Source: Chiloscyllium plagiosum
Lineage: Eukaryota
Reading direction: 5' to 3'
Assembly (NCBI RefSeq): GCF_004010195.1
Contig: NC_057751.1
Coordinates: 232,979 to 296,978 of the forward strand
DNA: 64,000 bases
Shown here one piece after another: positions 3,854 to 59,700 of the stretch. The notes below the pieces were generated by a model. The model was not told the DNA's origin and searched no databases. It worked only from the letters and a program-made list of their open reading frames with translations. Each line of letters starts with the position of its first letter. Within the stretch, counting starts at the first letter, position 1. A program made the position numbers and the translations under genes.

Positions 3854-3888
3854 CACTAGCTTTCGGAGCGCTGCTCCTTCATCAGGTG
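3854..3888 (-). ncRNA. Minimal type-I hammerhead ribozyme motif (family A)
   Basis: cac-CUGAUGA-a-ggagc(agc)gcucc-GAAA-GC-UA-gug: stem I cac/gug, 5-bp stem II, palindromic AGCU stem III. Confidence 0.75.
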
Positions 3889-4089
3889 GTTGTGGAGAAT
3901 AACATCGTAAGACACAGAATTATAGCAAAAGTTTACAGTGTGATGTAAATGAAATTATATCTTGAAAAAGACCTGGATTGTTTGTTAAGTCTCTCATCTT
4001 TTAGAATGATTGTGCTGGTTTCAGTTCTTTCATTTGTAAATCCCAGAATTCTGTCACTTTTGAGAATGTAAAGAAGTTTACTCCACCAC

Positions 4090-4124
4090 CACCTGATGAA
4101 GGAGCAGCGCTCGGAAAGCTAGTG
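4090..4124 (+). ncRNA. Hammerhead motif (family A), stem II closing pair mutated
   Basis: cacCTGATGAaggagcagcgctcgGAAAgctagtg. Confidence 0.6.
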
Positions 4125-5119
4125 CTTCCACATAAACCTGTTGGACTATAACCTGGTATTGTGTGATTTTTAACTTTGGATAGAAATGGTTTGCAGGATA
4201 TGGGAAAAGCCAAGAAATTGGCACTAGGTGATAGAACCAGAGTAGGCTGAATGGCCTCTTCTGTACCAGAACAATTCTATTCTTCTGTTTCACCCATCCC
4301 TGCTTGGCCCTTGAACTGAGTTACCTGAGGCCACTTCAGAAGAAAAGACCCCAGCCCCATCTCATTGGATCTGTGGGTCTCAGGTACCAGTTGATAGTAG
4401 ACCTGAATATTGAGTGATTCACTTCATCATTCTAACACCCCCCCATCAGCCCCACTATTCCACAAGCCTGTCCCAAATGTGGGAATCAATGTTTTCTCAT
4501 CAACCTGTTTAGAGATGTTATGACACACCCTCTGAAGTAGGTGGGATTGAACCTGTGCCCCCGGCACACTACCACTATAGCAGCAAGCACCCCTTAAATA
4601 TATGAAAACCCAAGTAACCCACATATATGAGCAATCTACCTGAATGACTGCCATGTAGGGAAAAAAAATTCACATCAGGTTTTACCTTTCACAGAAAATA
4701 ACTATTTATTGTGAACCATGATGTGGAGGAGCTGGTGTTGAATTGGGGTGGACACACACAACTTTAATAAAAAAGAGAGATAAGGATTACTAATCTACAA
4801 CAATGTGATTTCAATCATATTCTACAAAAGTCCTAAATATACAAACATACATAAACAGACATTTATGATGACAACAGACAAATCACAGACAGTTTGACAC
4901 AGCTGTTATGGGTAAAAAAAATACAAAGGGGGGATGAAAGTCTGAAGATGAAAAGTCCAGATCACAAGTGTGGGTTAAATTGTCTCTCACTTCAGCAATG
5001 TTGTCTGTGAAATTGTGGCTGTTCTTCACTTCCATAGTTGATCGGTGGACCTTGGTCTTATTTGGTTGGAAGCCCTCTTTTAAATTTCTTGGTTTTTCTG
5101 TCTATTTTTTCCATATGGA

Positions 5120-7275: not shown

Positions 7276-7307
<32 letters not shown>

Positions 7308-10300
7308 CGAGAGGTTTTACGTCCACGTCCATGGATTATTTGAATGTATTTGAGATCTGTGATTCATGGCTTTGTCATACACAGACAGGAAAGATCAGGC
7401 AATGATGTGAGAGAATGGCAAAGCAGGTAGGAAGGGCAAAGTGGCCCAATGCTGCTCCTTTATGGCAAACAGGGTGGACTGGGCAAACAGGAGGTAGATG
7501 CAGTTCAGTACAGGTGTGAAATCCATGCCTCTTGGGTAACGGACAGTTAAAAGGATAGCATTGGAAATGGGGAAATAGGAACAAAGAATAGAGAGTACAA
7601 GAGAGGGACAGGAATATAGAATCTTCAACTCTGGCATTAGGAAAGACTAACATAATTCTGCTGTCCAGACATGAGGACTGGATAGAAAATGATGCAATTC
7701 CTGCACGAGTCTTGGCAGCAGCATCAGCAGTAGTATTGTGCACTTCAGGCCACTCTGTTATTGGAGGAATATTCCAGAATTAGCAAAGGTGGGATTTTAG
7801 CATTGGATCGACAGGAAGGGGATGAACATCAGCGGTGATACTGGGGAAATCCAGAATTGTAGAACCTGAGTGAGAGAGTTCATACAGGAGTTGAACACTC
7901 AAAAGGATTTTGTAAGGGGACAGGGAAGAAAAAAAGAGGTCCCAGAGAAGGGAAGGTCAGTGCCAAGGAGCAAATAATTGAGGAGAATTATTGGAGGAAT
8001 GGTTTCACACAGGTCAATATTCAGTTAGAAAAGGGGTAATGACTAGTGGATTATGAAAATGGAGCATCTATTAAACTGGACATAAAAACCTGAGAAGCCA
8101 GTTTGTAAAATAGTCCACAAAAGGGCTGAGAAGAGATAGCAGCAGAGGTACAATGGGCAGAATGGTCACAATGTCTGTGAAAACCCGGCAGGCAGCAGGG
8201 GAGTTAAGGTGAATTATGGAGACGTTACCTTAGTATCTTGTCCAATGTTGTGTGTCTGTGATCCTTGATGAACATCACTGGTCAGATCTTCCTTACTCTC
8301 GGACTGACAGGAATCACATTCATCGAGAGGGAACACACTGCTCCCTGTGAGGCAAACATAATGACAGCAGAGAGTGACCTGACAGACAACACCGTCCGGC
8401 CTTTAGTTACACTCCGATAGTGTAACATTCCCTCAGTACTGACCCTGTTACAGTGTGGTGGTTTCTCTCTATTCCATTGGTACTGTGTGGAGTGTAAGGA
8501 GGCTGTGTGCAAGGTTGAAGGTGAGGTTGTGGGCACGTCACATTGAGATAAGACCAATAGCTTTGAATTTTCTGTAATGCTTATCGGGAATTTAATGGCT
8601 TCCTCTCCCTTCACCCCACCCCACCCCACTCCCTCCACCCATCTCGTCTCGTACGTCCTCAGACTCGTCTGTCCTCAGGCACAACCTTCCGCCCAACATG
8701 GCTGCCCAGTCTCCGATCCCTATGACTAGGAGTGTACTAGGAGGAAGATCAGCATAGTGGGACAATGACACATTCACCTCTCACCATTGCCTGGCCACAG
8801 CGTGCCTGAGTCTGATGCCCACCTCTTCTGTAAGGAGGAATGTTGCTGGTGCCTGGGATGTTGCAATGAGTCAGGGAGTTGGCATTGGACAGGGCTTGTG
8901 AAACTGTGGGTGAGCAGTTGAGTGTCCTCTTGCCCAGGTTGTCCTGCCCATTGTAGGAAAACTGCCGCTGAGCCACAGCTGCAGTACTGTTGAAGGAGCT
9001 CCTAGATGGAAGAGAAAACATCACAAACTGCATTGAATGCACACACACCAAGCTCAGCAAAGAACTGAACTCTCCCTCTCACCTGAGGACTCCTGTATGT
9101 CTTACCAGTTGTTTCTCTTTCTGCCTCAGCTTCTCTTCCATCTGCAGTTTGTCTTGTTTCAGCAGTGAGTTCCTTTCCTGAAGATCAGCGATTTTGTCCA
9201 ACAGACGACAAACTTGCTCCAGATACTTGTGGCTGGGAACCCTTAAGGCAGATCCTTCCCTTCTGGCCTGAGAGAGAGAGAAAGAAAGAAAGAGACAGAG
9301 AGCAAAGATTGAGAGTGTGAGAGGGAGAGGGGACAAGTACAGGCAGACAGACAAGTACTGGCCTTTCTGGAGCCGGCTCCAACTAGGAGAGACTAACATG
9401 TGAGACCCTGAGGTGACCTATCTCTGAATCCAGCAACTAAACTTGCATTCCCAGATACACACCCAGAAAACAACAGTCTGACGATTGTGGCTCAGACAGC
9501 CCCACACAGGAAAGCTAACACCTTCAATACGTTATCTGGGCCGACATGACACTAATTGTTAAAGTTCACTTGAGAATGTAACTTTAAAAACAGTTTTGCA
9601 ATTTACAAAAGAAAGAACTGAAACCAACATGGTCATTCTCAAAGATGAGAGACTTAACAAACAATCCAGGTCTTTTTCAAGATATAATTTCATTTACATC
9701 ACACTGTAAACTTTTGCTATAAATTCTGTGTCTTACAATGTTATTCTCCACAACCACCTGATGAAGGAGCAGCGCTCCGAAAGCTAGTGCTTCCACATAA
9801 ACCTGTTGGACTATAACCTGGTGTTGTGTGTTTTTTAACTTAATACTGAATGGACTCACAAACTCCTAACATTCGCTTGCACCTGTGTTTTTGTTTTTGC
9901 CGCTGTCTACCTATTTTTATATTATTAGATTATTTACTATCTATGCTACTTTACTATGTGGTCTGCCTGTATTGCTCGCAAAACAAAGCTTTTCACTGTA
10001 CCTCGGTACACGTGACAATAAATTCAATTCAACTCGATTCAACTCGATTGCTCTTCAATCAACACTGGTCCTATCTGAACGATACGTGAGACCAGAGCCA
10101 CGGCAATGACTGTTATCCTGCTGTCTGAAATGGCTGAGGGAGTCAGTGGGCTATAGTCAAAAAGGCAGCTCTGCAAAACCGAGTGATTGAGGGGAAGGAA
10201 ATGTTGGCGTGTTCACATCTCAAGAACAAATAAGAGACACACACACTCTCATACAACACTGATCTACCAAAACATTGGCTCCTGCAAACATCATTGCATA

Positions 10301-13100: not shown

Positions 13101-13411
13101 TGAAATCATCAAAGTCTTAGAGCTGTAGCTTATTTAAATTAGTGTGACAGAAAGTTCCTGAGGGTGAATGGGAATTTGATTTCATTAGGAAAGCTTTACG
13201 AGAGGACAGGGTAAACATTGAAGACCATCATCCTGCTCTCAAGTTGGGAAGATCAGGATTGGTTTTTCTTTGGAGAAAATGAGGATGCAGATGCTGGAGA
13301 TCAGAGTCGAGAGTGTGGTGCTGGAAAAGCACAGGGCGGGGGGGAGGTTTGGAAAGTTTTTGCTTTCAGTTTACAGAAGTCCTGGTTGAAGTTGGATGCA
13401 CGATATAGTTT

Positions 13412-13727: not shown

Positions 13728-13882
13728 AAAGGAGTTAGTTCAGAGAAATTAGGAAATAGAATACACCAGTGCAAGGGATGTTAGTGTGAAGGTTCCAGTC
13801 CTGAAATGTTTGGTTCGAACCTGGAGGGGGTATTTGAATCTTAATGTCTGGAATGGATTGTGCATTCAGGGAAACAAGCCTC

Positions 13883-13918
13883 ATTCCTGAAGAAGGGCTT
13901 ATGCCCGAAACATCGATG
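13883..13918 (+). ncRNA. Hammerhead motif (family B) in a pLTR fragment
   Basis: attcCTGAAGAagggc(ttat)gcccGAAAcatcgatg. Confidence 0.6.
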
Positions 13919-15699
13919 CTCCTGCTACTCAGATGCTGCTGACCTGCTGTGCTTTTCCAATACCACACTTTTCAGCAAAGGAGCAATCAACGTTTGACAG
14001 TCACCTTTGATGCAAGTTTGCTTCCATCATGTGGTCGTATCTGATGCAATGCTCATATTCTCATTTGTAGCATCAGAATCTGAGTGTGGATATCATGGTT
14101 TTGAAGATTCCAACAGACATTTATTGCAACTCACTATTGTACATAAAAATTCCATGCCTTGAGCACCTAGTGACCTGGTGAACCAGGAGGTTACACAGAG
14201 TGACCAACATCCAATCGGGTGTCATGCTTTCTGTAATCTGGCGACTTTCTGAGAAGGCAACTCAGATCTTGAGACCCTTGGGTCACGTGCTTTCACAGGT
14301 GTACTGACCTTGAGACACAATGGCCTGGAGAACTTGCCGTGTATTCTTCACTTACTGTGCAGGTTTCAGGCAGGCTGTCCTGTGCTGTCACCCTCTTCAT
14401 TCAGAAACAGGATGTTACGACAGCTCACCTGACAGAACCGTGTGGAATGTGAAACCTGCTCCAAAAGACAATGGAGCTAATCTCAGTTGATGACACCATC
14501 TGCAGCAGACAATGGGCTCTGGCAATTTAGCCACAAACACTTCATCATTCAAGCACTCAGTCTCTTTATACCTGCTCTATAATTGGATGAAACTCAACAA
14601 TGAATCCTTGATACAGGTGACTCAGCTCTTACTCCAGTCACTGAGCATTTGCTCTATTGTTGGTATTTCCTCTTTGTCACCTTGTTTATGGGATTGGGAT
14701 TGCTGCATGTTTGTACCCAGACTATGCTGAGGATGGGAAAGGGCAAAATAGAACTGTCACCTCTCTCAATGTGAGAATTACAATCATCACTGCAATCAAG
14801 CATTTGATGGCCAGAGTGAGAAATAAAACAGGGATGGGGTAGTAAATTCTGAGACAGAGCGAGAGAGTGGAAGCGAGTGTGAGGGTGTGCATGAGTTTGG
14901 GAGAGTGAGTGTGTGCGCGTGTGCCAGAGACTGAATGTGTGTGTGAAGTTAAAGATCACACAACACCAGGTTATAGGCCAGTAGGTGTGTCTGGAAGTAC
15001 AAGCTTTCAGAGTGCTGCTCTTTCGTCTGGGAGTTGCCTGACCAGGACTTCAAAATGAACCTGTTGGACTGTAACCTGGTGTTGTGAGATTTTTAACTTT
15101 GTCCATCCCAGTCCAACACCGGCACCTCCACATCATGAGTGTGTGAAGACAGTGTGAGAGACTGTGTGTGTGTGCGAGAGAGAGTGTGAGTGAGTGAGAG
15201 AATGAGTGTGAGAGAGAAAGAGAAATGAAACTTGTGCTCAGTCTGACTCTCATGAGCCATAGTTGTAGTCAGAAGTCAGACGACACCAGGTTATAGTCCA
15301 ACTGTTTTATTTGAAATCACAAACTTTCGAAGCGCTGTCTCTTTTGCGCTTAGTTTCTAGCTTCCTTCTCCTCTGAACCTGCTCATAGGTAATGAGTCGG
15401 ATGTGAGTGCTTGCAGGAGCAGAGTTTCTGAGACACATTCAAAGTGGGAAGGGTGTAAACAGCACTTGAAGGTACAGAGAAGGAAGCAGGTACAAACACC
15501 CTCAGCACCTCTCAATCAGGAACCATATAACCAGTGTTTTTGTTTTGTGTGTAGATATTAGAGGACAGGCCCCAATATCAGATCCTGAGCACAAGCTTCT
15601 CCTATAACAGAAATCCAACTTCAAAAACCCCATGATGTGATCATACTGGGATTCATGTGGCCATGGAGATGGTGGATGTTCATGGCACAACATTAGGAT

Positions 15700-17213: not shown

Positions 17214-17219
17214 TTTATT
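17214..17219 (-). terminator. Candidate PDLIM2 polyadenylation signal AATAAA
   Basis: tttatt on + strand ~90 nt past the stop codon. Confidence 0.4.
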
Positions 17220-17476: not shown

Positions 17477-20400
17477 CTGTGACACGATAGAAATGACACA
17501 ATGACAGAATCTTAAACTGCTGTCCCTCCAGTCACACACCCCTACAGCAGGTCAGGAAAAGTGGGACACCTTCCCTGGCTCATCCCATACAAGTCAAATG
17601 GATTGATCCCAGGCTGCGAAGACAGAGTGGTTTAGTCTGGGATCCAGGAACCATTGCTGATGTGTTATTGAACTGGATCTAGAACAGGCAGCGTGGGTTT
17701 CTTGCTGTTCCCGTGTAGCTTTGTTTTTTGCGCACCCACCTCCTCTTGCCCCTTCCACCTTTGGCTAATTACAATCCCTTGAGCCAAGCTGGACAATACT
17801 CACGTAATGCTTGATCCACATTTCTCACACACACGATATTTGGGCACTGGTGTGTTTGGGGCGGAGGGAGAGAATCTTCCCGGGAACTGAACTACTGCTC
17901 CTGGTCAGGGTAGAGGCGAAGGAGAAAAGGAGACTTTGTCACACCCAGCGAACAACTTTCCTCCCTCCCCAGCTCCACCATCCGTCATATGCTCCCCTGC
18001 TCCTGTAGCCTCTCTGTCTCTTCCACACCATCCTCCTAACATCTCAAAATCTCCCACCTCCACCAGCCAGCTCTGCCCCTCCTCACCGTCCTGGTCTGCA
18101 TCCAGTGCCTCCTGAAGCTGACGGAAACGATTGGATTGTCGAGGAGGTTCCTTTGCAGCTCGGTTCTCCTGGATCATCTTATAAACCTCCGAGTCTTTGT
18201 CGATATGATTTGAGGAACGCCGATCTGGGACCCTGGGGGCAGTGGGACAAATGGGGATGTGGCCAAAAATCAGTCAAAACCCATTTTAATAACTATCTCA
18301 CCACCTGCCCCAGTACCCACTTCACCGCCCACCCACCCGGGCAGCACCCACCTCACTGCCCACCTACCCGGGCAGCACCCACCTCACCACCACCCACCCA
18401 GACAGCACCCACCTCAACACCCACCTACCCGGGCAGCACCCACCTCACCACCCCCCGCCCAGCAGCACCCACCTCACCACCACCCACCCTGGCCGTCTGT
18501 TAAACCTCTTTGGATCAAGCAGCACACAAATAGCTGCAGGTTCAGGAGTAATGGGATTAAAAGTTTGAATCAATATTTGCAAACTGCTTTGCTACAGTGC
18601 ATTTAATAGTAAAAGAGCACAGCTGGTCAGGCAGCATCACAGGAGCAGGAAAATCGACTTTTCGGGCCAGAGCCCTCAATTCCTGATGAAGGGCTCCAGC
18701 CCGAAACATCGATTCTCCTGCTCCTCGGATGCTGCCTGACCTGCTGTGCTTTTCCAGCAACACACTCTCGACTCTGATCTCCAGCATCTGCAGTCCTCAC
18801 TGTCTCCCATTTAATAGTAATACCTCAGCTGAAGTACTGTGAGTAGTTGTAGACACCACATTATAGGAACAAAGTGAGCAGACGAGAGAGTGAGTGTAGA
18901 ACATTACAAGAATGGTTCCAGGAATGAGAAACTTCAGTGATGTTGAAGGAAATTGGGGTGTTCTTCTTAGAGAGGAGGTGGCTGAGAGATTTAAGAGAGG
19001 ATTTTGAAAATCACAAGCAGGCTGGACAGAGTAGATCAGGAGAAAGTATTCACACTGGTAAAAGGAACAAGAACAAGAGGGACATAGATTTAATGCTATG
19101 TGCAAACAAAGCAAGGGTGATGTGAGAAAAAAAACTTGTTCACACAGCAAGTAGTTAGGGTCTGGAGTGCACAGGCTGGAAATGTGGTGAAGGCAGATTC
19201 AGTTGAAGCATTCGGGGGGGGGGCATTAGATGGTTACTTGGATAGAAATAGTGTGTAGGCAAATGGGGAAAAAGCAGCAGAATTGCACAGTGTCATGATG
19301 CTCATTTGGAGAGCCAGTGAAGACCTGATGAGCTGAATGGCCCCCTCCTGGATTCTAACACTTAGGTCAAAAGACCCTTCACAGGAACACAAACGGTTAA
19401 AGTTTGATGTTCACCACATTGAGGCAGATGAGCAAACACCAAGGAGGAAGTCAGCTTTCCAAAAACGCAAATCCGAAAATGAAGGGCCCAAGTCTCTGAT
19501 GGGAGAGGGAATATTGCCTGTGATATCTTGCCGTACTCTGCTCGTCGCAGCCTGCCCCCCAGAATACTATCTGAACCGGCCCCTTTCACATCACTCATCA
19601 ACTGCGAAAAGTCTTTCTCTGGTTGTACAATCTCCTGAGGTAGTGAAAGGTGCTATTGAAAAGCTAGTCCTTATGTTAATGGTGTGTGGCATGCTGCGGA
19701 CACATTGGCACGTACCTGTTGCTCAGAGCGGCAGAGCTGGGAGAGTGTGATCTTTCAGTCCTATGCCTTACCTCCGAGGGACTCGAGTCTGTGGAGTGGC
19801 TCACTCTGGGCACAGAGTAGGAACTGGAGACAGGAGAGAGGCTCCTGCGGACCTGAATCCCTGCTTGGAATCCCTGAAAAAGCAATCAGAAGCAGCAAGG
19901 ATCAAGACACCAAAGCATCAAACCGACTGAGGGCAAGAGGAGAAAGGCCTTTTGCCCCTCACCAGGAGACTGGGAACAAAGAGATATCCTCCATACATTT
20001 GGGCCTTGATGCTCACAAAATTGCTTGTGTCTACGTTAAATCATCCTTCCTCACTGTTTTCAGTGTCTGAGCACCAGCAAGACATCCTGAGACTCAACAG
20101 GAGTCACAGAGATCCAGGGTTACCCCCACTGACATACATAGTCTCTGTCTCTCTCTCTCTCTCTCAGCAGTTCTGCACATCCAGGGTCCTGGGATCACTC
20201 ACCTTCGGCACCATATTTCCCCGAAATGCTGTCTCCTCCTTCTCTTCTGAGCTCCAAGCTGGGGATACAGTCCTGGAATCAAATGAGAATTCAATCCATG
20301 TTCAGCACCATTCGCACCATTGCAGATACTGAAATATTGAAGGGTATTTGGATCCTTGTTTTCCTGATATATATTAATGACGTGGATCTTGATGTATAGG

Positions 20401-38640: not shown

Positions 38641-38690
38641 TAATCAGGCCTGAATAACTGTAATGAAGGTCATGTTGTTGATGCAGAAGA

Positions 38691-41700: not shown

Positions 41701-44700
41701 CCACTATCCTTGAGAGCTCTATCCAACTCTTTCTCAAATGAATCCAGAGACTGGGCCTCCACTGCCCTCTGGGGCAGAGCATTCCACACACCCACCACTC
41801 TCTGGGTGAAGAAGTTTCTCCTCATCTCTGTCCTAAATGGCCTACCCCATCAGTCCAGATTCCTCCCCAGAAAGGAAAGTGTTTGTCCCCTCTCTGAAAT
41901 AGGAAATTATTTGGAAGCTCCTTGAACTGCAATTGCTGCTTTTCATGAAACTTTCCAGAATGGATTCAACTCCATTTTGTACATTCCTTCTCAGAGTGCG
42001 GGTATTGCTGCCAGCTGAACATCCTGAATTGTCCCAAGATGGTGCACAGGGTGTTATTGTAAATTCATTAGCTTTTCTTCTGTGGCACATGGGCAAACAA
42101 TGCTCTGATTTAATTATTCTTATTTTTGTTTTCATATTTGTCCACAGCTTTGTCCCTCCCTGTGTCAGCCATCTCCTTTAGCACCACAAGCACTCCTCGA
42201 ACCTTGGCTTCTTGTGCAATCCAAAACTGAATCACACCACCATTGGTGACTGTGCCTTCAGTTCCCTCAGCCTCAAGCTCTGGGATTCTCTCCCTGCAAC
42301 TCTCCACTTTGCTTTCCATCCTTAAAACCCTCCTTCAGGCTCACCCCTTCGACTGAGGGTTTAGTCATCCGTCCCTCATATATCCTTGAGTGGCTCACTC
42401 TTGTATTTTATTCTAGAATGCTCCTTGGGACATTTTGCAACATGAAGGATTTATATCAACTGTGATCAAGATCCATAAATATATCATCGACTTTTGGAAA
42501 TTTTGTTTCTAAAGTGGAGAAATGATGTGTAGCTTTAAGTTTGACTTGTATGTCTATATTGTGTATATTAAGAAGGGGAGACATGGTTTCACTTCACACT
42601 TGTTATGCTAAGGGTGTTGGAATGTCTAAAGTTTATTGACATATACATTTATGTGAGGATTTACAAACTTGATACAGCCTGAGTTGAATACCAGTACATG
42701 AGGGAAAAAAATGTCGAGATAAATAATCTGCTCTTATCTAGTGACAAGAGTCCAGCATCTAGATTAGAGTGGTGCTGGAAAAGCACAGCAGTTCAGGCAG
42801 CATCTGAGAAGCAGTAAAATCGACCTTTCGGGCAAAAGCCCTTCATCAGGGATTGATGAAGGGCTTTTGCCTGAAACGTCGATTTTACTGCTCCTCAGAT
42901 GCTGCCTGAACTGCTGTGCTTTTCCAGCACCACTTTCATATAGACTCTGGTTTCCAGCATTTGCAGTCATTGTTTTTATTAAGAGTCCAGCATCACAGAA
43001 CGACAGAATAATCTTGGTCAGGCAGTCTGGAGGTTCAGTCAAAGCAAAAAAGTGGCTTTTGTTTCGCAGTCTCCATCAAAGTCAGGGGCTGGGACAAACT
43101 CCTGAATGTTTTAAGAGAAAAGAAAATCTAGAAACAGAAAACTGCTGAAGCTAAGGGTATGGAAGATCCATGGGTTTGTTCTGAATGTGCATAGAAGATA
43201 TTAAAAAGAAAGTTCCGGAAACAATACTCCAAAGGAACAAGGAATATTAAAGTGAAGAGAGGGTAACCCTACACTGCAGTTTGAGTATTCTGTTAGATTG
43301 CTATTCACTGCAAAAATTTGAAAATTTATTCCTGATATTTATAATAAGACATTTCAAATAGTTCTTGTATAATGTAATTAAGTTGGTATTTTCTTTTACA
43401 TTTACAAATAATGAACTTTCTGTCCTTTTGTTAAAGTACATTGGCAGCCTCTTGTGAAGACATTCAGTGATTGCAAACAAAAAGCAAAAATATAGTTTAG
43501 AATCTATCCAACCAAATCTCATTCTGGGATCCAATTTATCCAACGTGGCATCCATTAGGGTGACAACACAAATCAAGTTGTTTGCAATCGCTTACCTGGG
43601 AGGTCTGCACTGGTTGCTTAGTGGAGGATACAGTCGCCATAGTTCCTGTGCCTACCGCTGGTTGAGGCGGTGGTGACGACAGCTGCCAGGAGAGAGGGTC
43701 AACGGGACTGCCTCCGTGCTGACTGGTTGGCAAAGCTGGCATTGCATGCTGATTGGTGTTCGATGCTACAACTGCCTGCTGTCTGCTGGTTGGCATTGGT
43801 ACAGAATAGTGATTGGCTGGTTGTCTGGTCAATGAATCTGATCCCTCCATTTTTGTGGAGACTGGTGAGCTGGGGGAATAATACTGGGTTGGTAGAGTTG
43901 AAGAAGTATTGGGGTAATGCTGAGTTTGGGCGATGGATGGGTTGGTGGAGTAATGCTGGGTTACAGGGGTGTGGCGTTGCTGGGTTGGCAGAGTTAGTGA
44001 AGTGTTCAGATATTGCTGGCTTATGAGAGTGGGGGAGGTTTTCAGGTATTGTTGGGTTGGCAGAGTTGATGAGCTGTAGGTGTATTGTTGCATTTTAGGG
44101 GTAGGGTTGGGGGATGTTTTCAGATATTGCTGGGTGGTACAATTNNNNNNNNNNNNNNNNNNNNNNNNNNNNNNNNNNNNNNNNNNNNNNNNNNNNNNNN
44201 NNNNNNNNNNNNNNNNNNNNNNNNNNNNNNNNNNNNNNNNNNNNNNNNNNNNNNNNNNNNNNNNNNNNNNNNNNNNNNNNNNNNNNNNNNNNNNNNNNNN
44301 NNNNNNNNNNNNNNNNNNNNNNNNNNNNNNNNNNTGCTGGGTTGGTACAACTGGTGAGCTGTTGGGGAATTGTTGGGTTTTTGGGGTAGTGTTGGGGGAG
44401 GTTTGCAGGTATTGCTGGGTTGGTACAACTGGTGAGCTGTTGGGGAATTGTTGGGTTTTTGGGGTAGTGTTGGGGGAGGTTTGCAGGTATTGCTGGGTTG
44501 GTGAAGTATCACCATGAGATAGGGTTGAAGGGCTCGGTGAAACATTGCAGTGTTGCTGCATTGGAAAAGTTGATGGACTATGGGGGGACTGCTGACTTTG
44601 GGAGACTGGAACTGAGCCAACGGCACTCTTGACTTTTGGACTTTTCACCACTTGTACGTAATTGGCCGGAAAGATTCCTTGTCGGTTGGTGCCTGTTATT

Positions 44701-47700
44701 CTTCCTTCGAACCAATTGTCATCGACTCTTCGTATCAATGAGATTGTTTCACCCTGATACACAAACAAACAATCAGCTGAGGGGTTCTGGACTGGGGTGA
44801 AATATCGCCTGACTCCAACCCAAACTCCTCTGATTTGCTGCACACTTCCTCATCCACACTTCTGTGACCTCCAGAGCTGACTGTGAAGTGGATGGTCTCA
44901 TGCATCCTAACCTCAGTAAACCTTATCTCATCCAGAACTGTACTGTCCTGAATTTGATCACCTGGAGAGGCTCTCTGTTAAGCAATCCCTCCATTTCAAA
45001 ATTCTCATTCTTGTTTTCACACCTTTCAATATCTCTGGAATTTCCTTTACGTCTACAACTTTCAAAAGTCTCTATGCTTTATTAAGTGTGGCCTTTTACA
45101 CATTCTCAGTTTCCATCATTCTATCCTTGGCACCATGTTTTCAGCTGCCTGGATCCTAAGCTCCGGAATTTCTTCCCTCAGCCTCTTTGCACCTCTAAAT
45201 CTCACTTTGCCTTTAATATATTCCTTAAAGTTGAAACTTTATTGCTGGAACAGCACAGCAGGTCAGGCAGCATCCAGGGAACAGGAGATTCGACGAACAC
45301 TTGCGCCCACACCTCCCCCCTCACTTCTCTCCAAGGCCCCAAAGGAAACTTCCATATCCGCCACAGATTCACCTGCACCTCCACCCACATCATCTACTGC
45401 ATCCGCTGCAGCCGGTGTGGCCTCCTCTATATTGGGGAGACAGGCCGCCTACTTGCGGAGCGATTCAGAGAGCACCTCTGGGCCACCCGGACGAACCAAC
45501 CCAACCAACCTGTAGCACAGCATTTCAACTCCCCCTCCCACTCCACCGAGGATATGCAGGTCATTGGACTCATCCACCGCCAAACCACAACAACCCGACG
45601 GTCGGAGGAGGAGCGTCTTATCTTCCGACTGGGAACCCTCCAACCGCAGGGGATGAACTTGGACTTCACCAGTTTCTTCATCCCCCCTCCCCCCACCTTG
45701 TCTCAGCCGGATCCCTCCAGCCCGGCACCGCCTTCCTGACCTGCAGTCTTCTTCTTGACCTCTCCGCCTCCATCCTACTCCGACCTATCACCCTCACCTT
45801 GACCTCTTTCCACCTATCACATTTCCAACGCCCCTCCTCCAAGTCCCTCCTCCCTACCTTTTATCTTCTCCTGCTGAACACTCTCTGCTCATTCCTGAAG
45901 AAGGGCCTGTGCCCGAAACGTCGAATCTCTGTTCCATGGATGCTGCCTGACCTGCTGTGCTGTTCCAGCAATAAAGTTTCAACTTTGATCTCCAGCATCT
46001 GCAGACCTCACTTTCTCCTCGAATATATTCCTTAAAACCAACCAGTTCAATTAAACTGTTACACATCTGTCTCAACACCTGCTGATGTGACTTGGTAACA
46101 AAACCTTTCCTCGATAACTGCTCCTGGGAAGTGCCTTCGGTAGTTTTACAAAATTAAAGGTGCAATATACATTTGCTGTCATAACTGTTGATCATTCTAC
46201 AAGATGCTGCGATTACTCACATCCAGGAACATGGACATCCTCAAACCAGAATTAACTTCTATCTTCAGAAACCAGGATTATCTGTTTGATACCTTTAAAT
46301 TTATGAAAAGAGCTGAAAGGATAGATGTGGAGAAGATGTTTTCACTTGTAGAGAGAAGGAGACTCAGGACAGAAATAGAAGTCAGAAAACAATCTAATGG
46401 GGGAATAGAATCGGATGTAGGAGATTAAATGTACTCTTATGGAGCAGAGACACCAGGAGGGATTGCTTGGGCTGAATATGCTGTCCATATTCATGATATC
46501 TGGATAAGGCAAGCATTCTGCTAACACTCTTTTAAATTGCTGACACCACCTCAACCATGATTCCTGCACATGGATCACTCTCTCATTTTGGTCACTGCCC
46601 AGGCTCAAACTGCAGTTGGCAACTCAACTTTCTGCACTTGTCTAACTTTCCACTCACCCAAGTTTCTCACTGAGCTCTGCACATCTGCATCAATTCCTTT
46701 CCACTGCAGCACTCATAGGGCACTCAGAATTTTCTCCTTGTCCTTGGCTCACTCCCACTCTGAACAAGGCTCACTGTCTGTGGCGGCCTTCTGTCTCCTA
46801 AAGTGATGGTTTCCCTGTGATAGTCAGCTTTGTGTTTGGCTCACATTAGCACAGAAATCTCTGGGATATTTGCTGCAGAAGATGACAGTGGGTGTGACTC
46901 ACAAGCTCTGTTTCTCAGGGCCCTCTTCTCAGCCAGCTGAGCTTTCTGCTTCTGTTCACCTTTCCACCATCTCCCAGTTGGCAGTGTTAATGTCCTTGCT
47001 TGCAGGTGTCCTCGATCCAGAGATATGGGTGCCAGGATGGTGTGGCCCAATGGTCAGCTCACTATGTGGAAGATCATTGAGTGTACAGCTCGCCTTCATT
47101 CAATGAATGTGGCCCAGCCAATACAGACTTGTTGGCTTCGCAATGAGTTGGTAAGCTTGTCTGACCAAGACATGCCAGAGATATCTGAGACAGAGAAGGT
47201 GGAAATAGCTCAGCCTTTTCGCCTACCTAACATATGGTTCTCAGGCCTCACTATGTAGAAGAGCTTGCAGAGGTTAGGGTTTGGTCCACTCACAGTGTGA
47301 TGTTCTTGATCAAGATGCTGTTGGTACACACTCTGTTACTCAGTTCAGATACAGCACTGCAGCTTTTGTGTTGCCTGTGTTGATTTCAGCATCAAGTGAT
47401 AGATGAGTGAGACCTGCAACGCCGAAGTCGATGAAGTCATACTCAGTGTTGATAAATGGCAGGGTAGCAACATCCTGGATGATGGCATTGTCTTCCTGAT
47501 GTTGATGGTTAAAATAGACCATTTCCATGTAAGAGAGTTTGTGTGTTTGCGCTGAAAATGTTCCTCAGTGCAAAATGTTCATGTGGGATCAGTGGCATTA
47601 AGCAGCTCTCAGATAAGAATTTGGTGTACTTTTGCCTTGGATCTCAGGCAAGCACAGCTTTCTGTCAGTTCTGTATCATTAAGGAGACATTCTCTGTTGA

Positions 47701-50700: not shown

Positions 50701-53700
50701 CGCAGCTAACATGTCCACAACAGGGTTAGATCCAGAACAAAGCTCCCTCTTCATTCTTCTGATCTTTCAGAGTACTTGGGATTTTTTTAACCATCTGAGA
50801 ATTGATGATCCGAAGAGCAAGATTGTAGACAGGGCAGCACTCTCTCGGTCTTGTCCTAATGTCGAGTGGCAATCTGGCTTTTAGGCTGAAGGCTGTGCAG
50901 TGGTATAGGAATAGTCTGATTTGGAAATACTGTCTTCTGCTGCCAGTTTGTTTCCTGTGTGTGACCTTCCATACTTATGGAAGGCTGCACACCTGTTCAG
51001 TTCACAGGGAATATTGTTTGTTTGTTGTATTTCCCCAAAGAGCACTGGGGAAAGTTTCATGGCTATTCAACCGACCACCGTGACACAGGACCATAATTCA
51101 CCTTCCTGACTGGCTGCGCCTGGAGCTAAAAATTGTTTGCGCCTCATTATTCTCTCTCATGACTACTCTCTGAGCGATGAGATTTGAGGACTATGTTTGG
51201 GATTAAATAACACGAAATACTGCACTGAGTGACCTTCAACCTGTTGTTGCTACCCAGCCCAGTCTCTGAGCTTACCTTTCGCGTTTCGGAGATGTGTGGC
51301 CCATCTGTCAGGTTGTCTTGTCTCCCATCAGGACTGTTCCCATTATTCACACAGCTCCGAGGACCTACAAAGAAAGAGAATGGAAAGGCTAGCACTTCCA
51401 TCGCACCCTTTCACCATCGCAGAATATCCCAAACTGTTTTACAGCCACTGATCAACTTCGTGATGTGGAGCCATGGTTGTCACATCCGAAACAGAGCAAA
51501 CGCTTTGCTTTATCAGCTGACCTCAGAGATGGCATCTCTGAAAGTGCAGCACTCTGACAGAACGACACAGGGCCTGTCAGTCTGCGCTGTGTACCCTGGG
51601 GCCAAATATTTATCCCTCAACAACATTTCATAAAGGAGTTATTTGGTTCTTGTTGTTGTATAATTGGATGGATATGACAAGATTAATCTGAGCTCAGCCA
51701 CAGCTCTGCTGACTCTGCAGTACAACCACAAACCAAGAGGTGCAGTGTTATGCAGGTTGGGCACACAGCAAATGGAGTCTGGCCTGGTCTCTTCATGGAG
51801 ATTCACGCGTCTTATTTAGTTCTTGTTAATCATTGTTCATGTCCCAGAGTTAATGTAACCTGTACATAATCACTGTGATGTTATTGTCTAAGACAAGTCT
51901 TACAAGACTTGTTTCTAGTCCATCCTTCACCACAGACTGCTTGAAAGCTCCTCACAAGAATAAGTGGACTGATGGCAGCATTCTTCCCCAACTGGCCTTT
52001 CTCATCACTACTCGAACACTGGTCCTGCTGCTGTACGTGGGAGCTGGTTGAGGGTAAACCTGCAGCTTTGCTTCCTACATAACCAAGCTTCAAACATGAG
52101 TAAACTGGCTGCAAGCTGGTTTGGAACATCTTGACGGTCTGACTGGCGCTAGTGAAATGCAACTCCTTTCTTCTCACCTCCTGAAGATGCTGGGTGATCT
52201 CTGGTGCCAGTGTCTCCATGGAGGCTCTGGTTGCCAGGCAACTCGCTGCATTGACCACTGGGTTGGAGATTGACGGACGACTGTTCCCACCTGGGAGGTG
52301 TGCTCATTACACTGGAGCAAGAAGAGAAAAGTGTAAAGTGTTATACAGTTCACTCAGGGTAGTAAAACCCAGCCTGGAAACCCTCTCTTCAATCTACACT
52401 CAAAGGGGAGTCCCGACTCATGGCAACTGATCAAACATTGACAAGCCGAATAAAACAAAGAACGTTGCTCCAAACTCCACTGACAAATTATTTTCAGAAA
52501 CTAAAATGACAACAGTCACACCCGATAACAAACAAACAGGAATCAGAGAGTACAAAATGACATAGGGAAAAGTGTGGAAACAGAGGCAGAACAACGTGTC
52601 CTTGAAACAGTGTGCTGGAAATATCCAGCAGGTCAGGCAATGTCTGTGCGAGGGAGACAAAGTTAATGATTCCAATTGTATAGGACTCCAACTGCTGAAC
52701 ATTTTGTCCTTGTTCAGGCTGGGCACTATCGTTGTGAATGAGCAAAACGTCCTCGTAAATAAATTCAACATCCACTTACAGTGCAGAGATTAAACTTGTA
52801 CACAGCCTCCAACTGTGGTCTCGTGGTACCAGGCTTTGCAGAGATTTACAACTTTTTGTCCACTTTGAAAGTCTTGCCTCTGGCTGGAAATCTGTGACCA
52901 GACCAGGTCTTTGCCTGGAGGACTGCTCCAAATAAACCCCCAAATCCCTCTGCTCCCACACGGCTCGCAGATTGACAGATAACACCAGCATCAGCTGTCA
53001 CTAGACTGCATTTATTCTTCAGAGCCCAATATTGTCAGGCCACTCTCGTTTCTAAAGAGCTATTCATTAACAAGACAGAGCCAACCATGCCTGCAAAGCT
53101 GTTCTGTATATTAATCACGTTGTCCGACACAGCAACAGCTATCTCCTGCATATTAATGAGTCTCTCCTGCATATTAATAAGTCTGTCTGCATTCCATTGA
53201 GTGACCTGCATGTTTCTTACTAAATTATGCACAATTCTTTCTTTCTCCAATTTGATCGGTGAAATTCTTTCTCAGTCTGCCCCTCCCTTTCTCTCTCCCT
53301 CCATTGAACACTGTCTGCCTCTCCCACTAATGCTTGTTCAATAACAGTTTGCATTCATCATTGCTTCTCAAATGGGTGGGTAGTAATTCAAAACCAGACC
53401 CCACCCAGTCAAATCCAGTTTTACCCAGTGATTCAGAGCCTCTACTAATAGGTGGTAACAGGCATCAAGTGGTGTGGCTAAGCTGATCAAATAGGCCTTC
53501 TCTGGAAGAAAAGCTGTCTTTGGGTTACAATGGATGTCTGATGGGAACAAGGATCAGACAGAAAACATGTTTCTTCCAGAAGATGTAAACCACAGGCTCA
53601 ATTCCATGTTGGTATTGTGTCTTCCTTGCCCTACCTTAATTTCCGACCATATTTGGAATAATCTGATGCCAGTGGAGAAAAGAACCCCATTTGTGTTCAA

Positions 53701-56700
53701 ACCTCATGTCACATCAGGGAGACCCAGTGAGGACAGTCCATTTCTTCCCAGCTCAATCTTGTTGATGCCTAGGCCCTCAATCCAACAAGGTGAACCTCCA
53801 ATCTGGTTGAGTGAGATTCAGTACAGGCAATCAGGAAGTGACTGTTGTCTTATAATAACCAAGCCACTCAACGGCTGCAGATGTGACACCTGCCCAGATT
53901 AAGCCCGTTTGTGACTGCAGCCCCACACCAACATAGTCTAACTGCCCTCTAAAGTGCTCCAACGTAACATAGGATAAGATAAAGCTGATTGAAAGGCCCC
54001 CAACAGCACTGTTTCAAGGGACAGGATCATTCAAAGTTTGTGCGATGATTTGTAGCTCGGGTGCTCATTGTTGTGGTTCTGTTTGCCGAGCTGGGAATTT
54101 GTGTTGCAGACGTTTCATCCCCTGTCTAGGTGATATCCTCAGTGCTTGGGAGGTTCCTGTGAAGCGCTTCTGTGATGTTTCCTCCGGCATTTATAGTGAT
54201 TTGTATCTGCCGCTTCCGGTTGTCATTTCCAGCTGTCCGTTGCAGTGGTCAGTCTGAGAGTGGCTGTTGGTTTGTGTGCTGTTATGAGTCCTAGTGGTCG
54301 CAGTAGTCTGGATGTCAGTTCAGAAATGTTTTTGATGTATAGTAGTGTAGCTAGTCCTTTGGGTTGTGGCATGACCTCATTCTGTTGTCTTTCCCTTAGG
54401 CATCTGTTGATGAAATTGCTGGGGTATCTGTTTTTGGCGAATACATTGTATAGGTGTTCTTCTTCCTCTTTTTGCAGTTCTGGTGTACTGCAGTGTGTTG
54501 TGGCCCTTTTGAACAGTGTCTTTTGTGTGTGTTGGGGTAGTTGCTTTCGTAGTTTAGGACTTGGTCTGTGTGTGTGGCTTTCCTGTATACCTTTGTGGTG
54601 AATTCTCCGTTCGCTGTTCCCTGTACCATCACATCTAGGAATGGGAGTTGGTTGTCCTTTTCTTCCTCTCGAGTGAATCGGATTCCTGTGAGTGTGGCGT
54701 TGATGATCCGGTGTGTGTTCTCTATTTCTGTGTTTTTAATGATTACAAAGATATCATCTACATATCTGACCCAGACATTGGGTTGAATTTGCGGTAAGAC
54801 TGTTTGTTCTAACCTTTGCATTACTGCTTCTGCTATGAGTCCAGAGATGGGTGAACCCATGGGTGTGCCGTTGATTTGTTCATATATTTGGTTGTTGAAT
54901 GTGAAGTGTGTTGTGAGGCACAGGACCAGTAGTTTGAGTATGCAGTCTTTGTTGATAGGTTCACCATCCTGTTGTCTGTTCTGTATGTCTAGCAGGTTGG
55001 CTATTGTTTCTCTGGTTAGGGTTTCGTCGATAGAGGTGAACAGTGCCATTACATCGAATGAGACCATGGTTTCTTCCTTGTCTATGTGTATATTTCTGAT
55101 GATGCCCAAGAATTCCTGTGTTGACTGTATAGAGTGTCTGGATCCGCTGATCAGGTGTTTCAGTTTCTGCTGTAGTTCTTTAGCCAGTTTGTGTGATCGT
55201 GTCCCTGGTAGTGTTAGTATGGGTCTGAGTGGGATGTTTGGTTTGTGCACTTTAGGTAGTGCATAGAATCTGGGGGTGTTGTTGCTTTCAGGTTTCATTC
55301 TCTGTAGGTCAAACCTGGTTATCTGTCCGAATTCCTAGAGGCATGGCACTCATCCACAGATTCAATCAATAAGCAGATCGACCTGGACCCAATATACCGA
55401 CCACTGCAACGGACAGCTGGAACTGACAACCGGAAGCAGCAGGTACAAATCACTATAAATGCCGGAGGAAACAACATAGAAGCGCTTCACAGGAGGCTCC
55501 CAAGCACTGAGGATGTCACCTAGACAGGGGACGAAACATCTGCAACACAAATTCCCAGCTCGGCGAACAGGACAGGATCATGTTATATCACACTTCTGCA
55601 TTAGATAGTAGTACATATAACATCACACAGATGCTCTTGACAGTGATGTTCAGGTGAAAGAATGAGAAAAGGCCTTCTGTTCTGGCCTTATCGTGGAAGT
55701 GCTGAATGATGTTTGAAAACCTGATACAGTTATACAACACAGCAGCAGAAGCTAAGGCTTAGGGTTGGAGTCAAAGAAGTACAACAGGAGTTTTGAATGA
55801 AGGTCAGTGAGGTTTCAGAACATGACTCAGAACAAGGTCACGCTACAGTGGGGGAACAGGCTGGAAGGAACTTGCTGTGTTTGCCTCAGCACACAGAGGT
55901 TGCTAGTCTGTCTCCTGGATACATAGTGGATGTCCATACTCTGCTCCACCCAGATATAATTCATTGTAAACAACAAATTACTGTAGATGCTGAAATCTGC
56001 ATTGAAAACAACAAATGCTTGAGATCACAGGATCCATGGAAAGAGAGCAAACTAATGTTTTCAGTCGAGATGACTCTTCATCAGAGCTGAACTCTGTAAC
56101 CGTAACTCTCACGCCGGGTCACACTGTTGAATATTAACACAGGGTCTTGGCCCGCTGTTGGGGGGACAATGGAGGAAGCTCTTTCTGATGCAATGCCCAC
56201 TCCTGATAGGTGCAGCTAGTCTGTATTCATTCACTCTCACTGTGCCCTCATGAACAACCAACTGGCAGCTTCCAAAACGGCCACGACAGGAGACCCTGAC
56301 AAGACTAACTACAGACTTTGAGCTATTTTTAGCTTGACAAACTATCCATTTAGCAACAAGATTAAGTTTGCACTGAACCCCTGCAAAGGTGTCTGCAGAA
56401 TAATTACTTTGTAAATTAGGAGCTGAGGAGGCAACTTGAATGTTATCTGAACTCTTGTCTGGACATTTTTACAAAACTGTTTGCAATGCTATAGAAATAG
56501 CAGCATGAGGAGGCCATTCAGTCCATTAATCCTGCTCTCTCATTCAATATTATCACAGGGCCAGGAGTTGGCCATTCAGTTCTTTGAACCTGTTCCACCA
56601 TCAACAGGATCCTGCTGATCTGTGGCCTGACTCTGTGTACCTGTCTTTGACCCATATCCCTTAATACCTTTATTCATCTCAGATTTAAAATTAACAAATG

Positions 56701-59700
56701 ATCCAGCATGGGCTGTCATTTATGAAGGAGCTTTCCAAGCGCCTACCGCCCTTTGTGTACAGAACCGTTTCTTCACATCTCTCCTGAACAGTCTGGCCCT
56801 CATTCTCAGAATATGCCTCTTCTTCCTAGAATCCCTCACCAATCTTGAAGACTTTGATCAGATTACTCCTTAACTTTCCACATTCGAGAGAAAACAGGTC
56901 TAATTTATGTATACTCTCTTCATAATGTAACCCTTGAAGTCCAGGTGTCATTACGATCATAAGACACAGGAACAGAAATGAGGCCACTCGGCCCATTGAT
57001 AAGTTTCTCAATCCCATTCTCCCGCTTTCTTCAGGTAACCCTTGATCCCCTTGACAATCAAGAACCTATCTATCTCTGTCTAAAATATACAAAATGACTC
57101 AGCCTCCACAGCCTTCTGTGGCAGTGAATTCCATAGATTTCCCACTCTCTGGCGAAAGAGGTTTCTGCTCATCTCTGTTCCCTTTACTCTGAGGCCATAC
57201 CCTCGGTCCGAGTAAACCTATGATGTACTCCCTCCATCGCCAAGAGATGGGGTGTAAAGTGTGGTGCCCAGATCTCCTCACAGCACTCCAAGTCAGGTCT
57301 AACCAGGGTTTTTTTTTATTAGATTACTTACAGTGTGGAAACAGGCCTTTCAGCCCAACAAGTCCACACTGACTTTCCGAAGAACAAACCACCTACACCC
57401 ATTCCCGTACATTTATCCCTTCACTGAACACCATGGGCAATTTAGCCTGCACATTTTTGGACTGTGGGAGGAAACTGGAGCACCCGGGGAAAACCCACGC
57501 AGACACTGGGAAAATGGGAGAATGTGCAAACTCCACACAGACAGTTGCCTGAGGCGGGAATTGAACCCAGGTCTCTGGCACTGTGAGGCAGTAGTGCTAA
57601 CCACTGTGCCACCGTGTCAGCCACTATCAACAGCTTAACTTTCTGCATCCTTGTACTTCAATACTCTCGATATAAAGGCCAGCATTATTTTCCAGAACTG
57701 TTCATTGCATTTTGAAGATCAATGCACCTGAACCACCAACAGTCATCGAGGTGGAGTGTCATACAGCATAAAAATAGATTCTTTACTCCAACCAGTCCAC
57801 ACCAACTATGTTTCCAAACCAAATTAGTCCCACTTGCCTACGTCTGGCCCCTTTCTTATTCATGTACTTATCTTTGGATATTCATTACATATAACCTCAC
57901 ACCTCCTGGAAAGCATTCCAATCTATCCGTTACCTGTCCAGAATGGATAATCTCATGCTTTCTGACAATGAAATCCGTCAGCCACAGTTTTGCTCATTCA
58001 CCCAGTCTATCACTATCTCTTTGTGTTTGTTGGTTTTCTGTATACGCAGCTTTGTAGTTCTCCGTTGTCTGTTCTTTCGACTGTGACGTCCAGGATGCGA
58101 GTTTGTTGTCGCTTTCTTCCTCCTTGGTGAACTTTATGCCTGTGAGGGTGTTGGTGATGTATACAGAAAACTGACAAACACTGACCAAAAACTTAACTAC
58201 ACCAGCAACCATCCCAACACACACAAACGAAGCTGTATCAGAACACTATTCCAACGAGCCACATCACATGGCAGCACAGACGAATTTCAGAAAACAGAGA
58301 GAACCAACTATACAATGTATTCAAGAAGAACGGATACTCAAAAAATACGGTCCGCAGATTCCTCAAGAACAAACCACGACAAGCAGACCAAACACAGCCA
58401 GAAACCCTAACCACCTTACCATACATCAAAGAAGTTTCAGAAATGACAGCCAGACTACTAAGACCCCTTGGAATCCTAGTAGCACACAAACCCACCAACA
58501 CTTTCAAACAAAAACTGACAAACTTAAAAGACCCAGTACATCCCATGGACAAAACCAACGTCGTCTACAAAATTCCATGCAAGGACTGCCAGAAACACTA
58601 TGTAGGACAAACAGGAAGAAAGTTAGCCACCAGGATACACAAACACCAGCTAGCCACAAAAAGATACGACCCTCTCTCCCTCGTAGCCCTACACACGGAG
58701 GAAAAAGAACACCATTTCGACTGGGGCAACACATCTATCCTGGGACAGGCTAAGCAAAGACATGCCAGAGAATTCCTAGAGGCCTGGCACTCCAACCACA
58801 ACGCCATAAACAAACACATAGATCTAGATACCATCTATCAACCTCTTAGAAAAGGAACAGGAAATGACATCACCACAAATCCCAGGAACCCCATCCAGGA
58901 GAAAGATATAATTAGAAAGCAGGAGACAACAGCTTCGCTTCACTTGGAGGTCGCCACTGATGATGTTATTTAGCCAGGTAATGAAATGTCTGGATATCAA
59001 ACCTACAGCTCAGCGAGCAAACTTACACCCTAAATATTCATATATCCCACACACCCTCACTGTAACACATTCATATACCCCACACCCCCTCATTTTAACA
59101 CTCTGAAATACCCCACACCCCTTACTGTGACACACTGATATACCCCACACCCTTCACTGTAACACATTCATATATCCCACACCCTCACTGTAACAGACTC
59201 ATATATCCCACACTCTTCACTGTTACATTCTGAAATACCCCACACCCCTCACTGTAACACACTCATATACCCTACACCTCCTACTGCAAACACACTCATA
59301 TATCCCACACCTCTCATTGTAACATACTGATATACCCCACACACACATATATTCCACACCTATCACTGTAACACTCTGATATATCCCACACCCTTCACTG
59401 TAACACACTGATATATCCCACACCCCTCAATCTAACACTTAGTCATACACTCAAGTTAAAGCAGATACGTAGTGTCACACAGTCTTTCTGTTGACCTGTT
59501 TTAGAACAACGTGTACTGTGGTTTCTGGTAAACCTAGTAGGCACTTTAATCTCAGGAAGTGGCTGGAAGAATTCCACCCGAAATACTGTCAATTACCAGT
59601 GATCCCCAGGTGTCGACTGACCTTATTTCCGTACCTACCCTGCCTTTCTGTGTCCACAGCTAACCAGTTCACACTCACCTGACACTAGCAGGCTGCCCTT

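What the first reader, a model, noticed from the sequence alone, without database searches (positions are those of the whole stretch)
3854..58993. Dense population of minimal hammerhead ribozyme motifs in at least four covarying families, spread by Penelope-like elements and tiny fold-back derivatives
Seen: ten or more motifs share the architecture stem I - CUGANGA - one extra nt - stem II - GAAA - palindrome - NUH - stem I'. Positions: 3854-3888(-), 4090-4124, 9755-9789, 13883-13918, 18679-18714, 42818-42853(-), 45891-45926, 54106-54145(-), 55504-55543, 58954-58993, with decayed copies near 15000, 32640, 39720 and 56070. Stem sequences differ between families but pairing is kept. Stem I is cac/gug, auuc/gaau, gca/ugc or cca/ugg; stem II is ggagc/gcucc, gggc/gccc or gucaccu/aggggac; stem III is a loopless palindrome (AGCU or ACGU). 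Established: PLE pseudo-LTRs carry minimal type-I hammerheads that are thought to need dimerisation through the palindromic stem III. Inference: this shark genome hosts a high-copy self-cleaving-RNA retroelement system whose 100-400-bp protein-free members insert with their own TSDs (retrozyme-like or extreme 5' truncations). I am not aware of a description for elasmobranchs but cannot search.
Basis: partly seen in the sequence, partly recalled or inferred. Interest (0 to 1): 0.75.

Follow-up and report, generated by a model that had tools for sequence, protein, structure and literature searches.

The report
Penelope retroelement tails carrying minimal hammerheads
The small hammerhead-ribozyme motifs are real and sit in the end-repeats of abundant Penelope-like jumping genes in a likely carpet-shark genome, and the short protein-free copies are likely ordinary dead-end insertion products of those genes, not a new self-cleaving RNA element.

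Summary
All ten motifs are at the stated coordinates and far above chance (6 strict hits against 0.11 in shuffles). The stems covary between families, but copies are decaying: only 5 of 10 keep the stem III palindrome. Families B, C and D lie directly behind Penelope-like element (PLE) protein remnants. The short copies are TSD-flanked solos or head-to-head inverted pairs. In 7 of 7 pairs one arm has the long 3' end and the other the short one, and both ends recur in runs from three organisms. No hammerhead lies in a tandem repeat, so these are not retrozymes. In three fold-backs tested, the core is predicted to be fully or partly paired with its own antisense arm. Minimal hammerheads in PLE repeats, solo copies, opposite-strand pairs, tails and TSDs are all published. 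I found no paper on these shark families. The scan noted the same thing before, in this genome and one other. One lead remains: 5' ends crowd at the hammerhead's 5' edge and a few lie near the cut. My prior prediction of a pile-up at the cut was not borne out, and that test was partly masked.

The parts
3781..4179 (.). Family A head-to-head inverted insertion: minus arm with core at 3885 and long 3' end, plus arm with core at 4093 and short 3' end; 12-bp TSD with 1 mismatch (3769-3780 / 4180-4191)
9566..9841 (+). Family A single arm: upstream repeat, TATAAA 40 nt before the core, intact hammerhead 9755-9789, short 3' end; 5' end and TSD not found
13272..13334 (-). Family B tail fragment (long end), no hammerhead, no TSD found
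13875..13971 (+). Family B short copy, hammerhead 13883-13918 with decayed palindrome, short end, no clear TSD
14949..15138 (.). Decayed family A fold-back, one short and one long end; about 10-bp low-complexity TSD; plus arm begins near the predicted cut
15266..15344 (-). Decayed family A copy (second subfamily), no TSD found
18613..18807 (.). Family B fold-back, 195 bp, hammerhead 18679-18714 on the plus arm, 13-bp perfect TSD
21331..21431 (-). Family B solo, 101 bp, long 3' end, 9-bp TSD; its 5' end is the first base after the predicted cleavage site
32589..32675 (-). Decayed family A solo, 87 bp, 14-bp perfect TSD; 5' end about 7 nt before the core
39663..39753 (-). Decayed family A copy, about 295 nt downstream of a same-strand degraded PLE ORF; the link is suggestive only
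40046..41320 (-). Heavily degraded RT-to-endonuclease remnant related to the family B proteins (about 40% identity)
42760..42980 (.). Family B near-perfect fold-back with cores back to back at 42849(-) and 42853(+), 14-bp perfect TSD
45230..46021 (.). Family B insertion: short inverted arm to about 45296, GIY-YIG remnant from about 45298, 3' repeat with intact hammerhead 45891-45926 and long end; 15-bp TSD
52606..52705 (-). Old copy with a B/E-type tail and a degenerate motif
54031..55569 (.). Family C insertion: long minus arm (RT remnant 55328-54268, internal deletion, hammerhead 54106-54145, long end) and plus arm from 55329 (hammerhead 55504-55543, short end); 12-bp perfect TSD. A9, the extra U and G10.1 form an ATG that opens a short frame
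56000..56095 (-). Fifth hammerhead family (core at 56084), decayed; relative at 10606-10690(+)
58022..59034 (+). Family D: thumb and endonuclease remnant 58159-58868, hammerhead 58954-58993, inverted ORF piece 58158-58022; no TSD found
62111..62305 (.). Decayed family B fold-back, long and short end; only a weak, offset 8-bp repeat in the flanks

Best explanation
The motifs are minimal type-I hammerheads in the 3' pseudo-LTRs of several Penelope-like retroelement families, and the 90-400-bp copies are likely dead-end cDNAs made by the parent elements' RT-endonuclease. Mechanism (inferred, by analogy with the Anolis enzyme): a PLE protein dimer nicks both strands of AT-rich DNA 9-15 bp apart and primes reverse transcription inside the RNA at two sites about 30-45 nt apart, downstream of the hammerhead. 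Priming from one nick gives a solo copy. Priming from both gives a head-to-head pair with one long and one short 3' end inside one TSD. Most cDNAs stop within about 100 nt, at or just past the hammerhead, either by running off a transcript that starts in the repeat or by stalling on the structure. Once inserted, copies decay neutrally. The ribozyme would cleave weakly, as a dimer or with protein help, only in transcripts of full tandem elements. Shown here: motifs, ORF links, TSDs, two 3' ends, decay, no tandem arrays. Inferred: the enzymology, the cause of the 5' ends, any cleavage.
For: ORF links: Pfam RVT_1 at 54396-55334 (E 7e-12) and GIY-YIG at 45086-45739 (E 8e-5); best relatives are shark proteins at 87-89% and 78-81%; tblastn places ORF ends just upstream of the B, C and D motifs. 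TSDs of 9-15 bp at 8 of the 17 intervals examined. An exact match of 9 bp or more arose in 0.35% of 2000 random flank pairs (with windows narrower than). In 7 of 7 inverted pairs one end is long and one short (0.008 if independent). Laid on the B copy: 38,757, 3,019, 2,161 and 10,732 records in four runs from three organisms. Loose ends with diverse AT-rich flanks lie at 46018-46020 in all four runs and at 45970-45971 in all four, and depth in the raw RNA run rises from about 60 to about 1600 towards the tail. The same fold-back form occurs in unrelated families among 120 metagenome loci. Literature: PMC4209133, PMC3846280, PMC8557442, PMC11167929, PMC2377424.
Against: Family A has no securely attached ORF in the window: the remnant at 40046-41320 is only adjacent, and its spacer does not align to the A or B upstream sequence. 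Nine of the 17 intervals examined gave no convincing TSD. No whole genome was held, so length distributions rest on about 20 arms and on one read lay of family B alone. Random truncation alone does not obviously explain 12 of 17 structurally fixed 5' ends falling between -14 and +29 of the core.
Confidence: 0.86

Rival explanations
1. The short copies are non-LTR retrozymes: tandem hammerhead repeats expressed as self-cleaved circular RNAs and re-inserted on their own.
For: Protein-free copies with their own TSDs. Non-LTR retrozymes derived from PLE repeats were reported in one chondrichthyan (bioRxiv 10.64898/2026.07.22.740005). Some joints near 45891 are not typed and could be direct repeats.
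Against: 0 of 16 tandem-repeat rows contain a hammerhead. Nearest same-strand cores are 3.4 kb apart. Paired copies are inverted, and the core is predicted paired (unpaired probability 0.0 for both 3.8k arms, at most 0.09 for six of seven core bases at 42.8k; partly open at 18.7k). Motifs are minimal, not canonical.
Confidence: 0.04
2. The hammerhead cleaves PLE RNA in vivo, and a share of the short copies are cDNAs that ran off at the cut, so the genome records ribozyme activity.
For: The TSD-flanked solo 21331-21431 begins exactly at the first base after the cut. Arms at 15.05k and 62.24k begin within about 2 nt of it. Joints 45924/45925 to 45891 in the DNA run and an opposite-strand joint 45891/45929 in 3 RNA reads. 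One metagenome partner arm begins at +29, with the cut at +28.
Against: My prediction, noted before the lay, of loose ends at 45923 was not seen among the six best-supported ends per run, and the table of common starts and ends was empty. A 1-nt gap in the reference at 45928 masks the site, and 822 rows were not shown. 4 of 12 short arms near the cut is not significant (P 0.09). Neighbouring ends at +20, +23 and +24 lie before the cut and need an uncut template. In Anolis, no RNA-seq ends were found at the cut and insertion did not need cleavage (PMC11167929).
Confidence: 0.15
3. A SINE-like non-autonomous family: short copies are themselves transcribed and re-copied in trans.
For: Several copies are of similar size (87-101 bp solos, about 200 bp fold-backs). 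Copy number of the tail far exceeds that of the ORF end.
Against: Junctions differ in every fold-back. The short copies begin downstream of the TATA-like box, so they would lack it. No two insertions among the 7 pairs share a junction.
Confidence: 0.08

Closest known systems
Minimal type-I hammerheads in pLTRs of metazoan PLEs (Cervera and De la Pena 2014, PMC4209133)
   Same: No real helix III, palindromic 15.2/16.2 positions, extra nucleotide between 9 and 10.1, G10.1-C11.1, several consensus families per genome, mostly solo copies, some pairs 100-700 bp apart on opposite strands, thousands per genome in coelacanth and Xenopus.
   Different: Sharks are not named in the parts I read or in the searched supplement. 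Stem I is 3-4 bp and stem II 4-6 bp here.
Canonical endonuclease-positive PLE insertion units (PMC3846280; PMC8557442; PMC2377424)
   Same: Strong 5' truncation, inverted 5'-truncated copy head to head, 8-10 bp TSDs (here 9-15), 30-40 bp tail at one end only.
   Different: Here many units have lost all ORF, and the junction lies inside or beside the hammerhead. No full-length or partial-tandem copy lies in this window.
Poseidon element PAc of Anolis carolinensis (Frangieh et al. 2024, PMC11167929)
   Same: ORF starts at the start of stem II (families C and D have ATG there). Two RT start sites define the tail, both strands are cut and extended, and targets are AT-rich.
   Different: Families A and B have no ATG at that place. 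No biochemistry exists for the shark elements.
Non-LTR retrozymes (PMC7229834; bioRxiv 10.64898/2026.07.22.740005)
   Same: Short, protein-free, hammerhead-bearing, related to PLE repeats, long TSDs.
   Different: Retrozymes are direct tandem repeats expressed as circles. These copies are solo or inverted, and minimal.

Membership tests
Minimal type-I hammerhead of PLEs | Core CUGANGA...GAAA...UH with closing stems I and II | tested here: met
Minimal type-I hammerhead of PLEs | Palindromic loopless helix III allowing a dimer | tested here: met
   Intact in 5 of 10 and in at least one copy of A, B and C; the single D copy is decayed. The dimer can be drawn but is not the minimum-energy cofold.
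Minimal type-I hammerhead of PLEs | Self-cleavage at the predicted site | not testable with these tools
   Needs a bench assay; the read lay was inconclusive.
Endonuclease-positive Penelope-like elements | RT followed by C-terminal GIY-YIG endonuclease, upstream of the repeat | tested here: met
   B, C, D:
Endonuclease-positive Penelope-like elements | Attached ORF for family A | tested here: inconclusive
   Only an adjacent degraded ORF at 40046-41320.
Endonuclease-positive Penelope-like elements | Inverted 5'-truncated copy, TSD, tail at one end | tested here: met
   7 of 7 pairs long+short; clear TSD in 6 of 7 pairs and 2 solos
Endonuclease-positive Penelope-like elements | Partial-tandem full-length unit with direct pLTRs | tested here: not met
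   None in this window; the genome was not available. Expected to be rare.
Neptune/Nematis clade (family B) | CX2-5CxxC linker before GIY-YIG | tested here: met
   Present in relatives P0122 and P0123; the window copy is truncated inside it. No tree was built, so Neptune and Nematis are not separated.
Penelope/Poseidon clade (families C, D) | No Zn-finger linker; ORF start inside the hammerhead | tested here: met
   the 54142 copy has ATA in place of ATG. RT phylogeny not done.
Non-LTR retrozymes | Direct tandem repeats with at least two consecutive hammerheads | tested here: not met
Non-LTR retrozymes | Expression as circular RNA | tested here: inconclusive
   No clear back-joint in 3,019 poly(A) reads, about 2% of one run; such a library would miss circles.

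The most novel reading that the evidence does not exclude
The short copies are complete run-off cDNAs primed at the 5'-proximal start site of the PLE transcript. Their 5' ends would mark the transcript start (just behind a TATA-like box) and, in a minority, the hammerhead cut, and the one-long-one-short rule would show that each subunit of the protein dimer uses a different start site. Shark genomes would then hold tens of thousands of snapshots that test the open questions of how PLEs insert and whether their ribozyme acts in vivo.
Probability: 0.22. Interest if true: 0.55.

Novelty: new member of a known kind. Interest (0 to 1): 0.2.

Why it matters
As it stands it extends a published feature of Penelope-like elements to shark families that I did not find described. 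Its value is as material: the copy number is high enough to map insertion ends at single-base resolution and to ask whether the PLE hammerhead cleaves in vivo, which the papers I read leave open.

Tried and rejected
Rfam scan: 0 matches at gathering score, uninformative for minimal motifs. No whole genome was held. A viral-contig scan with the family A motif gave 0. The metagenome scan gave 120 loci; only 2 matched the window, over the 35-43 nt motif alone, so they served as unrelated comparison families, host not determined. No RNA holder on record was listed by the run search. The cut-site pile-up was predicted and not seen, with the site partly masked. The loose ends at 45929, 45938 and 45939 were rejected as real ends because their consensus continues the hammerhead. 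The end at 45891 (185 reads, agreement 0.4) may be real 5' ends or subfamily divergence. Copies without junction or TSD (13.3k, 13.9k, 15.3k, 39.7k, 52.6k, 9.7k) were dropped before counting 5' ends; 52.6k proved to be another subfamily. The self-alignment of metagenome fold-backs ran across palindromic centres in several of its 18 rows, so those 5' values were not used. A hammerhead-like string at 9478-9517 has only 2 bp of stem I and is at chance level. The dimeric fold is not the lowest-energy cofold, which says little because the energy model ignores the core. The search of earlier findings by relatives returned nothing.
Full report
Observation. All ten intervals carry the stated architecture. 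A strict descriptor gives 6 hits against 0.11 in 100 shuffles; the loosest gives 11 against 1.03. Stem pairs change between families while pairing is kept: I.1 10/10, I.2 9/10, II.2 10/10, II.3 10/10 with four pair types. Pair type follows family, so this is about four independent observations. Individual copies are decaying. The palindrome survives in 5 of 10; four losses are CG>CA/TG and one is AGGT, in a window with CpG o/e 0.28. Only 3885, 9758 and 45895 are fully canonical. A profile search adds about a dozen further decayed or partial arms of A and B and a fifth family at 56084. PLE-derived sequence in 17 intervals covers about 6.6 kb of the window.

What they belong to. Family C follows an RT remnant (Pfam RVT_1) whose best relatives are Chiloscyllium punctatum proteins at 87-89%, so the host is likely a carpet shark. 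Family D follows a related thumb and endonuclease remnant. Neither has a Zn-finger linker, and in both the extra nucleotide is the U of an AUG at the start of stem II (ATA in the 54142 copy). The Anolis Poseidon ORF starts at the same place (PMC11167929). Family B follows a GIY-YIG remnant whose relatives carry a CX4CX2C linker, the Neptune/Nematis mark (PMC8557442). No tree was built. Family A has no secure ORF; one decayed copy lies about 295 nt behind a degraded same-strand ORF.

Anatomy of the insertions. Seven insertions are head-to-head pairs with both 3' ends outward; five are ORF-free and two carry ORF. In 7 of 7 one arm ends long and the other short (0.008 if independent). TSDs of 9-15 bp were found at 8 of 17 intervals examined: six pairs and two solos of 87 and 101 bp. 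Laying four runs on the B copy (45610-46060) gave 38,757, 3,019, 2,161 and 10,732 records from three organisms. Loose ends with diverse AT-rich flanks lie at 46018-46020 and near 45970 in all four runs, and depth in the raw RNA run climbs from about 60 to about 1600 towards the tail. Depth is not a copy number, but the family is plainly abundant and mostly reduced to its last 130 nt. Unrelated families among 120 metagenome loci show the same fold-backs and two ends.

Not retrozymes. No tandem repeat contains a hammerhead (0 of 16 rows) and same-strand cores are at least 3.4 kb apart. A fold-back transcript carries one sense motif and its antisense copy. The core is predicted fully paired in both 3.8k arms, almost fully at 42.8k and partly at 18.7k. 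As a caution, five of seven core bases are also predicted paired in the non-fold-back context at 45.9k, so minimum-energy folding is a weak guide.

Mechanism. The Anolis enzyme cuts and extends both strands at AT-rich sites, is predicted to be a dimer, and starts reverse transcription at two internal sites that define the tail (PMC11167929). That accounts, by inference, for solos, inverted pairs, the long/short rule and the TSDs. Of 17 arms whose 5' end is fixed by a junction or TSD, 5 are long (165-1190 nt upstream of the core), 8 end between -14 and +7, and 4 between +24 and +29, the cut being at +28/+29 (read). A TATA-like box lies 40 nt (A), 53 nt (C) and 50 nt (D) before the core; B has only TTTAT. 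Penelope transcription is known to start in the pseudo-LTR, from a promoter described as TATA-less in Drosophila (PMC2377424). Run-off from such a transcript, or stalling on the structure, could explain the crowding; I cannot separate them.

Test of in vivo cleavage. The solo 21331-21431 starts exactly at the cut. I predicted a genome-wide pile-up at 45923 before laying reads. It was not among the six best ends per run, and no common start or end was listed, but a 1-nt gap in the reference at 45928 masks the site. Four of 12 short arms near the cut is not significant (P 0.09), and ends at +20, +23 and +24 need an uncut template. The question stays open, leaning negative.

Literature seen. PMC4209133: parts 1-2 of 4, plus a supplement search with no shark terms (one file could not be searched, which may bear on the shark claim). 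PMC11167929: parts 1-2 of 4 and passages. bioRxiv 10.64898/2026.07.22.740005: parts 1-3 of 5; its supplements are closed, so the chondrichthyan species and families are unseen. Passages only: PMC6155905, PMC8557442, PMC3846280, PMC7229834, PMC6765202, PMC2377424. Lunse et al. on dimer cleavage was seen only as a reference. Six searches listed no paper on minimal hammerheads in shark PLEs; the library lacks most subscription journals, and Repbase and Dfam could not be checked.

Verdict. A real and tidy example of a known feature, in families probably not yet described. Interest 0.2. Three earlier notes of this scan reached the same reading on other DNA; they came after my own reading and are not independent support.

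Noticed in passing
window:45610-46025: In the raw RNA run A>G differences occur at 52% of A positions against 11% in the DNA contigs, while other transitions rise only 1.5-2 fold. This may be A-to-I editing of fold-back RNA, but reads and contigs are counted differently, the individuals differ, and T>C is not raised.
   Followed up: partly
window:45978-46009: Reads of the raw RNA run are about 3:1 skewed to one strand over the tail, which under the usual library orientation means sense transcripts.
   Followed up: no
window:15037-15047 and 62228-62243: In two fold-backs the plus arm appears to begin with the start of the hammerhead core and then jump to the sequence after the cut, skipping stem II; a template jump or a later deletion.
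   Followed up: partly
window:58022-58158: Inverted ORF piece abutting the main family D copy, like a twin-priming inversion with internal priming rather than a tail.
   Followed up: partly
window:9478-9517: Second hammerhead-like string 280 nt upstream of the family A motif; only 2 bp of stem I, at chance level.
   Followed up: partly
L027:967-1001 and L058:1331-1365: A 35-nt motif 94% identical to family A in metagenome contigs, with unrelated flanks.
   Followed up: no
window:43536-44849, 49245-49550, 17905-18273 (minus strand): Host exons with SH3 domains and a DUF4749 domain; from recall these resemble the SORBS3 and PDLIM2 neighbourhood. Seven of ten listed motifs lie on the opposite strand to these exons.
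   Followed up: no
window:59038-59440: A 32-bp minisatellite starts right after the family D 3' end.
   Followed up: no
window:44145-44334: Run of 190 N inside a 78-bp repeat in a long open frame.
   Followed up: no
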